Positions 1,172 through 1,467 of a stretch of DNA of 4,193 nt are shown piece after piece. The DNA is from a virus (Duplodnaviria > Heunggongvirae > Uroviricota > Caudoviricetes): positions 1 through 4,193 of IMG/VR virus record IMGVR_UViG_2700989509_000012; one strand, given 5' to 3'. The position numbers and the translations under genes are program-made. Every line of letters begins with the position of its first letter. The first letter of the stretch is position 1. The notes under the pieces are model-generated. The model did not search any database and was not told the DNA's origin. It was given only the letters and a program-made list of their open reading frames with translations.

Positions 1172-1309
1172 TCACCACCAGCGTATCTGACCAATGAAAT
1201 AACCGGAAGCCATAATCACAAACACCAGCCAGATAAGGATGAACTTCCAGGTGGATAATTTTTCAGCCATCATTCGAATCTCCCGAATCAGTTTGCTAAA
1301 ATCAAACAC
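1172..1309 (-). CDS. small hydrophobic membrane peptide, 45 aa from GTG 1309 or 33 aa from ATG 1273
   Basis: Same frame as the 72-aa track ORF. AAGGAG (1320..1315) lies 5 nt before GTG 1309..1307; alternatively GGGAGA lies 5 nt before ATG 1273. Product ...[33 protein letters not shown] has one TMD. Stop TGA 1174..1172 is 1 nt before the Rz ATG. The 72-aa extension to 1390 would run through the terminator hairpin and has no RBS. Confidence 0.35.
1294..1302 (+). promoter_or_regulatory. candidate extended -10 promoter (TGcTAAAAT) for a short plus-strand antisense transcript
   Basis: TG at 1294-1295, hexamer TAAAAT at 1297-1302 (5/6 to TATAAT). Predicted start near 1309, about 70-75 nt upstream of the 1346-1378 terminator T-tract. 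No good -35. Confidence 0.3.
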
Positions 1310-1345
1310 ACTTTCTCCTTTGACTTTTCCGGAGTCAGGAAACAC

Positions 1346-1378
1346 AAAACCCCGCTTGGTGCCAACAAACGGGGTTTT
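1346..1378. terminator. intrinsic terminator between endolysin and Rz, usable on both strands
   Basis: AAAA-CCCCG...CGGGG-TTTT. On minus RNA a 9-bp stem (CCCCGUUUG / CAAGCGGGG, one G-U), 7-nt loop, then UUUUGUGUUU. On plus RNA the same stem has one C-A mismatch and is followed by UUUUACUUUUAUU. Confidence 0.45.
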
Positions 1379-1467
1379 ACTTTTATTCACTTAGTTTTTG
1401 CCAGTTCGCAGGATTTCGTGTTATCCGCCCGTGTGAGCAAACCGCATTTTTCAGCAAAATATTCTGC

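What the first reader, a model, noticed from the sequence alone, without database searches (positions are those of the whole stretch)
1172..1385. Second small membrane-peptide ORF with a facing plus-strand promoter and terminator, between endolysin and Rz
The roughly 300-nt gap between endolysin and Rz contains a 33-45 aa hydrophobic peptide ORF with a near-ideal RBS (AAGGAG, 5 nt, GTG) ending 1 nt before Rz. On the plus strand a TGcTAAAAT extended -10 (1294-1302) would start a transcript near 1309 that ends at the 1346-1378 hairpin, covering the peptide's SD and start codon in antisense. This is the same small-TMD-protein/antisense-unit architecture as the module upstream of the holin. A terminator inside the lysis operon between R and Rz is itself unusual and implies read-through dependence for spanin expression.
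Basis: partly seen in the sequence, partly recalled or inferred. Interest (0 to 1): 0.55.

Follow-up and report, generated by a model that had tools for sequence, protein, structure and literature searches.

The report
Antisense-gated small membrane peptide cassette
Between the cell-wall enzyme gene and the outer-membrane-disruption gene of this prophage lies a conserved, portable unit: a 45-residue membrane peptide gene that very probably faces its own small antisense RNA. The layout is like that of a type I toxin-antitoxin pair, and it is found inside the late operons of many phages.

Summary
The ORF (1172-1309, minus strand, GTG start) is a real gene. It matches phrog_6632, is annotated by NCBI as a 45-aa hypothetical protein, has dN/dS of about 0.2, and is predicted to form a helix-kink-TM helix. 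Relatives occur in Escherichia, Salmonella, Yersinia, Enterobacter and Burkholderiaceae.

The new result is comparative. In almost every lineage the ORF carries the same package:
- a covarying hairpin shaped like a bidirectional terminator, usually 35-45 nt upstream;
- a small stem that occludes the Shine-Dalgarno sequence;
- on the opposite strand, an extended -10 (TGnTAnnnT) embedded in codons 3-6.

That -10 is kept although the amino acids there change (DFSK, DISK, NSSK, EFIK, DLSK, DYIK, NFNI). Synonymous sites at these codons are frozen while the rest of the gene is near saturation. The predicted antisense RNA is 69-81 nt long and covers the SD and the start codon.

The cassette lies mostly between endolysin and spanin genes of non-homologous types. 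It also occurs in tail and baseplate operons and as tandem copies in a Burkholderiaceae genome. No transcript data could be obtained and no Rfam family matches.

Verdict: a new variant of the type I toxin-antitoxin / cis-antisense kind. The peptide's function is inferred.

The parts
1172..1309 (-). 45-aa membrane peptide gene ([45 protein letters not shown]). GTG start at 1309-1307, TGA stop at 1174-1172.
   Evidence: ORF list and sequence. phrog_6632, E 8e-30, full length. PGAP CDS WP_000459342.1 in a 100%-identical locus. Conservation starts at the GTG. dN/dS 0.21. AF2 gives helix 4-17, a break, helix 20-44, pLDDT 82.
1315..1320 (-). Shine-Dalgarno AAGGAG, 5 nt before the GTG.
   Evidence: Sequence. 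An SD-like GGAG/GGGAG sits at the same place in relatives.
1268..1284 (-). Possible internal start: SD-like GGGAG (1284-1280) followed by ATG-ATG (1273-1268). It would give a 32/33-aa form.
   Evidence: M14 is invariant in the closer homologues and nearly invariant in the distant set. Codon E10 is GAG in 14 of 15 lineages although most other synonymous sites are near saturation. Use of this start is inferred.
1316..1340 (.). Small stem-loop. On the mRNA it pairs UUUCCU with the SD (occlusion). On the plus strand it is stem-loop 1 of the predicted antisense RNA and carries the anti-SD CUCC.
   Evidence: Folds. All 5 pairs of this helix show compensatory changes. G.U versus A.C count is 15:4, favouring the antisense strand.
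1346..1378 (.). GC-rich hairpin with an A-tract on one side and a T-tract on the other: the shape of a bidirectional intrinsic terminator.
   Evidence: Folds on both strands. Present upstream of the ORF in nearly all lineages with different stems. 91.5% of cells paired and 6 pairs with double changes.
1274..1302 (+). Predicted sigma-70 promoter of the antisense RNA: weak -35 TCGAAT (1274-1279), 17-bp spacer, TG (1294-1295), -10 TAAAAT (1297-1302).
   Evidence: Pattern search. TGnTAnnnT in the same codon register in 21 of 22 representative loci and in the 12 of 13 independent metagenome loci that carry an intact ORF start. Synonymous-randomisation joint P about 1e-8. Codons GAT, TTT, AGC, AAA and the rare CGA are frozen.
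1309..1385 (+). Predicted ~75-nt cis-antisense RNA: 5' tail complementary to the start codon and spacer, stem-loop 1 with anti-SD, A-rich linker, terminator and U-tail.
   Evidence: Covariance model R1 hit at 1309-1383, 73 bits. Predicted RNAs in 21 representative loci are 69-81 nt and almost all fold into the same two-hairpin shape. No Rfam family matches. The transcript itself has not been shown.
1172..1180 (-). TGGTGGTGA: the codons W-W-stop double as an SD-like sequence for Rz (ATG at 1170-1168), giving translational coupling.
   Evidence: Sequence. The same RWW-stop abuts the next gene in unrelated contexts: baseplate gene, lipoprotein gene.
1468..2001 (-). Context: endolysin R (GH24 lysozyme with a SAR-like N-terminus), upstream neighbour.
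   Evidence: Pfam PF00959. The SAR-like reading of the N-terminus is by eye.
676..1170 (-). Context: i-spanin Rz with embedded Rz1 (765-950), downstream neighbour.
   Evidence: Pfam PF03245 and PF06085.

Best explanation
Window 1172-1385 holds one copy of a portable cassette that uses both strands.

On the lysis-gene strand it encodes a 45-aa bitopic membrane peptide: an amphipathic N-helix, a kink, a TM helix and a C-terminal RWW. Three features would keep its translation low: a non-ATG start, an SD locked in a small stem, and a hairpin just upstream. Its last codons supply the SD for the next gene, here Rz.

On the opposite strand an extended -10 promoter built into codons 3-6 starts a ~75-nt RNA at the peptide's start codon. 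This RNA ends at the same hairpin, which is shaped to terminate in both directions.

Inferred mechanism:
- The antisense RNA is made from an ordinary sigma-70 promoter, independent of the late antiterminator Q.
- It pairs with the SD and start region of any late transcript. This blocks initiation at the GTG and probably invites cleavage of the duplex.
- The full-length peptide therefore appears only when antiterminated late transcription outruns the antisense RNA.

This is the logic of a type I toxin-antitoxin pair such as SymE/SymR, placed inside a phage late operon. The peptide's own job is inferred from its position, 149 of 168 loci lying between a lysozyme and Rz. The most likely job is membrane-active help or timing for lysis.

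Shown here: the anatomy, coding selection, structure covariation and promoter-motif conservation. Inferred: transcription of the RNA, repression, and the peptide's activity.
For: **Gene reality**
- phrog_6632 hit; PGAP annotation.
- The family spans Gamma- and Betaproteobacteria.
- dN/dS 0.21. AF2 gives two helices.

**Cassette unity**
- The hairpin plus SD-occluding stem precede the ORF after five kinds of endolysin, after a baseplate spike, tail protein K and a tape measure protein, in a podovirus-like operon, and as stand-alone copies.

**Structure**
- 88% of cells paired. Covariation 0.35 against 0.13 in shuffles (0 of 500 reach it). Slid controls are at most 0.10.

**Antisense promoter**
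- The sense register [xAx][xxT][AxC][Axx] equals TGnTAnnnT on the antisense strand. It is kept through DFSK, DISK, DLSK, NFSR, NSSK, EFIK, YLSK, DYIK, YFSK and NFNI.
- T-12, A-11 and T-7 are invariant, while -8 to -10 and -13 vary.
- Joint probability is about 1e-8 if synonymous sites are independent.
- Codon identity is 1.0 for GAT, TTT and AGC, and 13 of 14 for the rare CGA, which gives T-35 and G-33. Most other columns score 0.14-0.6.
- dS is 0.58 in the N-terminal half and 1.28 in the C-terminal half, at equal dN.

**RNA model**
- The predicted RNA length is constant at 69-81 nt.
- Model R1 finds the element in 13 metagenome loci not used to build it.
- It also finds it in front of other small TM ORFs: the O157 60-aa ORF, Sakai Sp4, and three tandem copies in the Burkholderiaceae locus L176.

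**Type I-like protein traits** (Fozo 2010, PMC2887945)
- Under 70 aa, one TM region, a charged and bulky C-terminus, and tandem duplication.
Against: - No transcript, transcription start site or ribosome-profiling evidence was obtainable.
- The Sakai Sp4 copy of the RNA element (NC_002695.2 1184789-1184863) has no Hfq-CRAC peak in Tree et al. 2014 Table S2.
- The lineages share ancestry, so the 1e-8 figure overstates the significance.
- The -35 is weak (TCGAAT).
- G.U asymmetry in the terminator stem favours the sense strand (24 against 9). The hairpin therefore also, or mainly, works on the mRNA.
- No sense promoter lies between the hairpin and the ORF. The unit is not an autonomous toxin gene as in classical type I systems.
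- Toxicity is untested.
- Frameshifted copies exist in some genomes.
- One locus (L102) has the hairpin much further upstream.
Confidence: 0.55

Rival explanations
1. This is a plain accessory membrane-protein gene with an ordinary terminator-like hairpin upstream, and there is no functional antisense RNA. On this view the -10-like motif is conserved for sense-strand reasons. One such reason is an A/U-rich, unstructured region after a weak GTG/TTG start that helps ribosome loading. Another is conserved residues of the amphipathic helix.
For: - Start codons are weak, and an A/U-rich stretch after the start is common.
- D-F-S-K-L-I is conserved as protein in the close subfamily.
- A single TGNTAWAAT in the window is not significant.
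- No Hfq peak lies at the Sakai copy.
Against: - The amino acids at codons 3-6 change widely (F/I/S/L/Y/H at codon 4; S/I/T/N at codon 5), yet the three sigma-70-critical bases and the TG stay.
- The middle of the hexamer takes G or C (TAAGAT, TAGAAT, TAAACT). An A/U-richness rule would not allow that.
- The conserved C in AGC/ATC/AAC and the rare CGA codon are not explained by A/U richness.
- The hairpin keeps a T-tract on the antisense side in all contexts.
Confidence: 0.2
2. The RNA is the real cargo. On this view it is a trans-acting, Hfq-type sRNA convergent to the late operon, like AgvB, AsxR and the Pas sRNAs of lambdoid prophages. The small ORF would then be only its landing pad or a secondary passenger.
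For: - Convergent sRNA genes are known at moron sites of the PR' operon (Tree et al. 2014, PMC4104026).
- The predicted RNA has an A-rich linker (GAAACAGAAAA), a terminator and a U-tail.
- The RNA element precedes different ORFs.
Against: - The ORF is under clear purifying selection, and the two always travel together.
- The 5' part of the RNA is fixed by complementarity to the SD and start rather than being a free seed.
- No Hfq-CRAC peak was reported at the Sakai Sp4 copy.
- No Rfam family matches.
Confidence: 0.15
3. The conserved element works only on the sense strand. On this view it is a leader or attenuator that sets how much transcription and translation passes from the upstream gene into the peptide and the coupled downstream gene (Rz/Rz1 dosage control).
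For: - The terminator stem shows more sense-only G.U pairs (24 against 9) and folds better on the minus strand in the window.
- The SD is sequestered on the mRNA.
- The RWW-stop is coupled to the next gene.
Against: - It does not explain the promoter-shaped conservation inside codons 3-12.
- It does not explain the A-tract kept upstream of the hairpin.
- G.U asymmetry in the small stem favours the antisense strand (15 against 4).
- In the Burkholderiaceae locus L176 the cassette has no co-directional gene upstream to attenuate.
Confidence: 0.1

Closest known systems
Type I toxin-antitoxin loci in which the antisense RNA starts inside the toxin ORF and covers its SD and start (SymE/SymR; also Ibs/Sib, Ldr/Rdl, Zor/Orz)
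   Same: - A small protein under 70 aa with one TM region and a charged, bulky C-terminus, with a tendency to tandem copies (features listed by Fozo et al. 2010, PMC2887945).
- A structured, SD-occluding mRNA leader.
- A short cis-antisense RNA of about 75 nt with its own promoter and terminator. The SymR layout is quoted from my own knowledge of Kawano et al. 2007, not checked here.
   Different: - No autonomous sense promoter: the peptide gene sits inside a phage late operon and is coupled to the next gene.
- No sequence similarity to any known toxin family.
- Toxicity and the RNA itself are unproven.
- The cassette is spread horizontally among phages, whereas Fozo et al. concluded that type I loci are not spread that way.
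hokW-sokW of Sakai prophage Sp5
   Same: A prophage-borne type I pair. Its membrane toxin is released on induction and helps phage-mediated lysis and release (Takada et al. 2021, PMC8621323). The function proposed here is analogous.
   Different: It belongs to the Hok/Sok family and is an independent locus outside the lysis cassette. There is no homology: Rfam Sok is not found.
Convergent sRNAs of lambdoid late operons (AgvB, AsxR, Esr41, PasA-D)
   Same: Short terminator-ended RNAs encoded antisense to the PR' late transcript in Stx-type prophages (Tree et al. 2014; Zhu et al. 2026 preprint).
   Different: Those lie upstream of the holin or beside stx and act in trans. This one overlaps the ribosome-binding site of a conserved ORF between R and Rz, is not in Rfam, and has no reported Hfq peak.
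Dual-start holin/antiholin genes (lambda S105/S107, phage 21 S68/S71)
   Same: A small membrane protein in a lysis cassette. Two in-frame starts are possible (GTG 1309; ATG 1273/1270). An RNA stem at the upstream start could set their ratio.
   Different: No holin family match. The C-terminus is three residues, not a charged cytoplasmic tail. The starts are 12-13 codons apart, and use of the internal start is only inferred.
Morons of lambdoid phages
   Same: An extra, portable gene inserted between essential late genes without disturbing them.
   Different: A moron has its own promoter upstream and terminator downstream on the sense strand. Here the terminator is upstream, the promoter is on the other strand, and the ORF abuts the next gene.

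Membership tests
PHROG phrog_6632 (phage protein family, function unknown) | Full-length match to the family HMM | tested here: met
   E 8e-30, residues 1-45 on profile 1-45 of 45.
Type I toxin-antitoxin system | Protein under 70 aa with a TM region and a short C-terminus rich in charged or aromatic residues (Fozo 2010) | tested here: met
   45 aa; AF2 helix 20-44; C-terminus RWW.
Type I toxin-antitoxin system | A cis- or nearby-encoded small RNA complementary to the toxin mRNA that represses its synthesis | tested here: inconclusive
   Promoter motif, terminator and fixed 69-81-nt spacing are conserved across lineages. No transcript or repression data are available, and there is no Hfq peak at the Sakai copy.
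Type I toxin-antitoxin system | Toxin gene is an independent transcription unit with its own promoter | tested here: not met
   No sigma-70-like site on the minus strand between 1310 and 1470. Only about 35 nt separate the hairpin from the SD, so expression must come from the late transcript.
Type I toxin-antitoxin system | Overproduction of the peptide is toxic or damages the membrane | not testable with these tools
   Needs expression in cells.
Type I toxin-antitoxin system | Tendency to tandem duplication of the whole locus | tested here: met
   Three cassette copies in the Burkholderiaceae locus L176 and two each in L200 and L203. There is a single copy in this window.
Holin (class II / S21-type or other) | Match to a holin family, and a TM domain followed by a charged hydrophilic C-terminal tail | tested here: not met
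   No Pfam, PHROG or NCBIfam holin hit. Only RWW follows the TM helix. The true holin of this cassette is at 3038-3253.
Spanin (i-, o- or u-spanin) | An N-terminal TM domain with a long periplasmic domain, or a lipobox | tested here: not met
   Three residues follow the TM helix and there is no lipobox. Rz and Rz1 lie downstream.
Moron | Own promoter upstream and terminator downstream of the ORF on the coding strand | tested here: not met
   The hairpin is upstream. The stop codon lies 1 nt from the Rz start.
Known Rfam sRNA families (Sok, Esr41, AgvB, AsxR, ptaRNA1 and others) | Covariance-model match at or near the gathering score | tested here: not met
   Nothing at 1172-1390 at E up to 1. 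In relatives there are only sub-threshold rimP-leader hits, 29-36 bits against a gathering score of 47.

The most novel reading that the evidence does not exclude
The cassette may be the founding example of an undescribed, horizontally mobile class of type I-toxin-like modules that live inside phage late operons of Gamma- and Betaproteobacteria. Each module would be a membrane-active peptide, possibly made in two forms from two starts. It would be gated by a constitutive antisense RNA whose promoter is written into the peptide's own first codons. It would act as a threshold device that helps set the moment of lysis, for example by collapsing membrane potential and so triggering the pinholin. 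The same RNA module is reused in front of several unrelated small TM ORFs.
Probability: 0.3. Interest if true: 0.8.

Novelty: new variant of a known kind. Interest (0 to 1): 0.66.

Why it matters
Lysis cassettes of lambdoid and Stx phages are textbook systems, yet this gene between R and Rz is only ever labelled 'hypothetical'. It is present in about 870 of 5,426 complete E. coli genomes.

If the antisense gating is real, several things follow:
- It adds an RNA-based threshold to the control of lysis, and hence of Shiga-toxin release.
- It shows that a sigma-70 promoter can be maintained inside coding sequence across large protein divergence.
- It defines a new, easily searchable RNA-plus-peptide module, since covariance model R1 finds it in unrelated phages.
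- It links type I toxin-antitoxin biology with phage late gene expression.

It also gives concrete synonymous mutations that separate the RNA from the protein for experiments.

Tried and rejected
- **Protein family libraries.** Pfam and NCBIfam give no hit for the peptide.
- **Rfam.** Sensitive scans of the window and of seven related loci found no family at the element. There are only sub-threshold rimP-leader hits, which I take as hairpin look-alikes.
- **E. coli K-12 Qin prophage.** R and Rz overlap there, so there is no gap and nothing to learn.
- **Longer 72-aa reading (start at 1390).** Rejected, because the upstream 27 codons are not conserved and run through the hairpin.
- **Sense-strand promoter using the conserved hairpin loop (TTGGCA-like) as a -35.** Rejected, because I saw no -10 at the right distance when reading the sequences by eye.
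- **Pas sRNAs (Zhu et al. 2026).** They lie upstream of the holin, not here.
- **Tree et al. 2014 Hfq-CRAC table.** It lists no peak at the Sakai Sp4 copy. EcOnc10, 11 and 12, which looked promising from their spacing, map downstream of Rz instead.
- **Sy et al. 2020 dRNA-seq/Term-seq tables.** These are not held, so the start site could not be checked.
- **Technical dead ends.** Alignment A4 was too diverse for it. The first IMG/VR scan returned only near-identical loci.
- **Literature.** Searches found no description of a small gene or RNA between R and Rz.
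Full report
**What the window is.** The minus strand carries a Stx/lambdoid-type lysis cassette:
- DUF1378 (3643-3822) and DUF826 (3330-3602);
- a phage-21-type class II holin (3038-3253);
- a 329-aa DUF1327/YdfR-like protein (2044-3033);
- a GH24 lysozyme R whose N-terminus looks SAR-like by eye (1468-2001);
- a 297-nt gap;
- Rz (676-1170) with embedded Rz1 (765-950);
- a 74-aa ORF (455-679).

The same 401 nt around the finding occur at 99-100% identity in Stx1, Stx2a and Stx2c phages, in H-19B, and in many E. 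coli chromosomes. Of 5,426 complete genomes, 871 carry at least 80% of it.

**Checking the observation.**
- On the minus strand, AAGGAG (1320-1315) is followed after 5 nt by GTG (1309-1307).
- The frame runs to TGA at 1174-1172, one base before the Rz ATG. ATG-ATG lies at 1273-1268.
- TGCTAAAAT is at 1294-1302 on the plus strand. It is the only match in the window but is not significant by itself.
- The hairpin at 1346-1378 folds on both strands, better on the minus strand because of G.U pairs (-20.8 against -15.8 kcal/mol).

**The ORF is a real gene, and its start is the GTG.**
- NCBI's pipeline already calls the 45-aa product in a 100%-identical genome (WP_000459342.1, hypothetical protein). 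CP-1639 annotates it as well. One phage record calls the longer 72-aa frame.
- It matches phrog_6632 over its full length. It has no Pfam or NCBIfam family.
- In an alignment of database homologues, conservation begins exactly at the GTG. The 27 upstream codons differ freely.
- An exhaustive profile search finds a small family of 34 clusters in 1.8 billion representatives. It reaches Salmonella, Citrobacter, Enterobacter, Klebsiella, Yersinia, Providencia and Burkholderiaceae.
- The consensus is M[22 protein letters not shown] followed by a hydrophobic stretch. The C-terminus is often [10 protein letters not shown].
- Pairwise dN/dS is about 0.21.
- AlphaFold predicts helix 4-17, a break at 18-19, and helix 20-44, with mean pLDDT 82. 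From the charge distribution I infer an amphipathic cytoplasmic helix, a single TM helix and three residues outside.
- In all enterobacterial loci examined the start is GTG or TTG, never ATG.

**The ORF never travels alone.**
- In the R-Rz gap of other prophages the last part of R and the hairpin are kept but the downstream content changes (break points at window 1313, 1334 and 1340). O157 strains carry a 60-aa and a 43-aa TM ORF. Strain 81009 carries an unannotated homologue of the peptide plus three more small TM ORFs. Sakai Sp6, Sp10 and Sp12 carry an antirepressor gene.
- Conversely, the peptide gene is found in quite different places:
  - after five non-homologous endolysins and before Rz/Rz1 or a separate i-/o-spanin pair;
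  - after a baseplate spike (Yersinia similis and others);
  - after tail protein K and after a tape measure protein;
  - in a podovirus-like operon;
  - as stand-alone copies next to type II toxin-antitoxin genes in a Burkholderiaceae genome (L176).
- In almost all of these it is preceded by a GC-rich hairpin, usually 35-45 nt upstream, flanked by an A-tract and a T-tract.
- Next comes a small stem whose 3' arm overlaps the SD: CCTTG/CAAGG, GACT/AGTC, GGCAG/CTGCC or CCTTCTG/CAGAAGG.
- The ORF commonly ends in TGG-TGG-TGA/TAG directly before the next gene's ATG. That string reads as an SD (GGUGGUGA) for that gene.
- Of 168 loci collected, 149 have the arrangement GH24 lysozyme, cassette, Rz.

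**The antisense promoter is the best-conserved part.**
- Read on the other strand, codons 3-6 give TGnTAnnnT in 21 of 22 representative loci. The remaining locus has TATGAT in the same register.
- Twelve of 13 metagenome loci fetched afterwards with a different subfamily as bait also have it. The thirteenth (L203) has a frame-disrupted ORF start.
- The amino acids there are not conserved: DFSK, DISK, DLSK, NFSR, DFSR, NSSK, EFIK, YLSK, DYIK, YFSK, NFNI and DHTS.
- What is conserved is the nucleotide register [xAx][xxT][AxC][Axx]. This fixes T-7, A-11, T-12, G-14 and T-15, while positions -8 to -10 and -13 vary. That is the information pattern of an extended -10 element.
- If the observed peptides are back-translated with E. 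coli codon usage, the motif arises in 3-25% of trials per lineage. The joint probability is about 1e-8 for eight lineages. This is an upper bound on significance, because the lineages are related.
- In 16 diverse members the codons GAT, TTT and AGC are identical in every sequence that has that residue, and AAA in 14 of 15. The rare Arg codon CGA at position 12 occurs in 13 of 14. On the other strand CGA supplies T-35 and G-33 of a weak -35 (TCGnAn), 17 bp from the -10.
- Most other conserved residues show codon identities of 0.14-0.6.
- Accordingly dS is 0.58 in codons 2-21 against 1.28 in codons 22-45, at equal dN.

**The predicted RNA.**
- A start 7 nt after the -10 falls on the peptide's start codon (window about 1309). 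The hairpin with its U-tail ends at about 1385.
- In 21 representative loci the predicted RNAs are 69-81 nt. Almost all share one architecture:
  - a short 5' tail;
  - stem-loop 1 carrying the anti-SD CUCC;
  - an A-rich linker (GAAACAGAAAA);
  - a terminator and U-tail.
- RNAalifold and pair counting support both helices. 88% of cells are paired, 11 of 16 pairs show double changes, and the covariation score is 0.35 against 0.13 in shuffles (0 of 500 reach it). Slid controls stay at or below 0.10. The alignment was fitted to the model, which inflates these numbers somewhat.
- G.U against A.C counts say stem-loop 1 is better on the antisense strand (15:4). The terminator is better on the sense strand (9:24). 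Both strands probably use the hairpin.
- A covariance model built from 20 sequences (R1) hits the window only at 1309-1383 and at its palindromic mirror.
- R1 recovers the element in the 13 new loci.
- R1 also finds it in front of other small TM ORFs: the O157 60-aa ORF (77 bits), Sakai Sp4 at NC_002695.2 1184789-1184863 (81 bits), and three tandem copies in the Burkholderiaceae locus L176. Two of those three precede a different peptide, which again ends in IRWW and again has a -10-like TATACT in its first codons.
- No Rfam family matches.

**How it most likely works.**
- Established knowledge: in Stx and lambdoid phages PR' is always active but terminates at tR' unless Q modifies the polymerase, which then ignores terminators (Sy et al. 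2020, abstract seen). The R-Rz hairpin therefore does not starve the spanin genes during lytic growth.
- Inference: the antisense RNA comes from a Q-independent sigma-70 promoter, so it is present in the lysogen and early after induction.
- It is fully complementary to the SD, spacer and start codon. It should block initiation at the GTG and create a duplex open to cleavage.
- Together with the weak start codon and the SD-occluding stem, this would keep the peptide off until late transcripts are in excess.
- This is the logic of type I toxin-antitoxin pairs. The peptide has the listed traits of type I toxins: under 70 aa, one TM region, a charged and bulky C-terminus, and tandem copies in relatives (Fozo et al. 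2010).
- A prophage precedent for a type I toxin that assists lysis and phage release is hokW-sokW of Sp5 (Takada et al. 2021).
- The near-invariant Met14, preceded by a conserved GGAG-like string (codon 10 is GAG in 14 of 15), suggests a second start. The antisense RNA would not cover it, so long and short forms may be regulated differently, as in dual-start holins. This last point is speculation.

**What argues against, and what is missing.**
- I could find no expression data.
- The Hfq-CRAC peak list for Sakai has nothing at the Sp4 copy. The peaks that seemed to fit by spacing (EcOnc10-12) lie downstream of Rz.
- The dRNA-seq and Term-seq tables that would settle the start site are not held.
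- The unit lacks a sense promoter of its own, so it fails one criterion of classical type I loci.
- Toxicity is unknown, and the link to lysis rests on position only.
- Rival readings remain possible: a plain accessory gene, a trans-acting sRNA as the real cargo, or a sense-strand attenuator. Each explains the promoter-shaped conservation less well.

**Verdict.** Two side claims are not supported. The gene itself is already catalogued as a hypothetical protein. The cassette as a unit appears undescribed in the libraries and papers I could search: a bidirectional terminator, an SD-occluding stem, a promoter written into codons 3-12, and a portable peptide with a coupled stop. I rate it a new variant of a known kind, with interest of about 0.66.

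Noticed in passing
window 3880-3956 (+): A weak Esr41-like match (29.5 bits, gathering score 102, E 0.01). It ends in a terminator-like site at 3936-3948, just upstream of and divergent from DUF1378. It lies on the side of the holin operon where the Pas sRNAs (PasA/C/D) and Esr41 are described.
   Followed up: partly
window 327-375 (+), inside a 96%-identical stretch at 267-435: Homologue of the Hfq-bound RNA peak EcOnc11 of Sakai Sp10 (also EcOnc10 and EcOnc12). It is antisense to the late operon, downstream of Rz, so a second candidate convergent sRNA lies in this window.
   Followed up: partly
window 2044-3033 (-): The gene between holin and endolysin is 329 aa, with DUF1327/YdfR only in residues 1-112. 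In most relatives the YdfR-like gene is about 103-114 aa. This one therefore carries a large extra C-terminal part (phrog_1085) of unknown function.
   Followed up: no
window 455-679 (-): A 74-aa ORF overlaps the last codons of Rz by 4 nt. It is conserved downstream of Rz in other prophages and matches phrog_2571 only over part of the profile. It has no Pfam family.
   Followed up: no
L004 2173-2499; L006 1989-2337; L191 (Sakai Sp4) 6615-6950: The R-Rz gap of other E. coli prophages holds other small single-TM ORFs (43, 60, 51 and 28 aa; phrog_4906, 1115 and 4493). Several end in IRWW directly before Rz. The 60-aa type is preceded by the same RNA element and has a TATACT on the antisense strand in its first codons.
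   Followed up: partly
L176 (Burkholderiaceae genome) 2170-5060: Three cassette copies share more than 330 nt of nearly identical upstream sequence, including a further terminator-like hairpin. They are interleaved with ParE/RelB-type toxin-antitoxin genes upstream of the terminase. The long shared leader may hold the sense promoter that the E. coli copy lacks.
   Followed up: partly
L104 864-972, L097 1386-1497, L090 1510-1586 (antisense strand): Sub-threshold Rfam hits to the rimP leader (29-36 bits, gathering score 47) overlap the predicted antisense RNA in three loci. This is probably a hairpin resemblance, but it recurs.
   Followed up: no
hairpin loop, window about 1355-1368 and homologues: On the sense strand the loop of the terminator hairpin keeps a GUUGGCA / GUUAGCA / GUUCGCA motif, which contains a YUNR U-turn-like tetranucleotide, while the stem covaries. 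This could be a recognition loop for RNA-RNA pairing.
   Followed up: no
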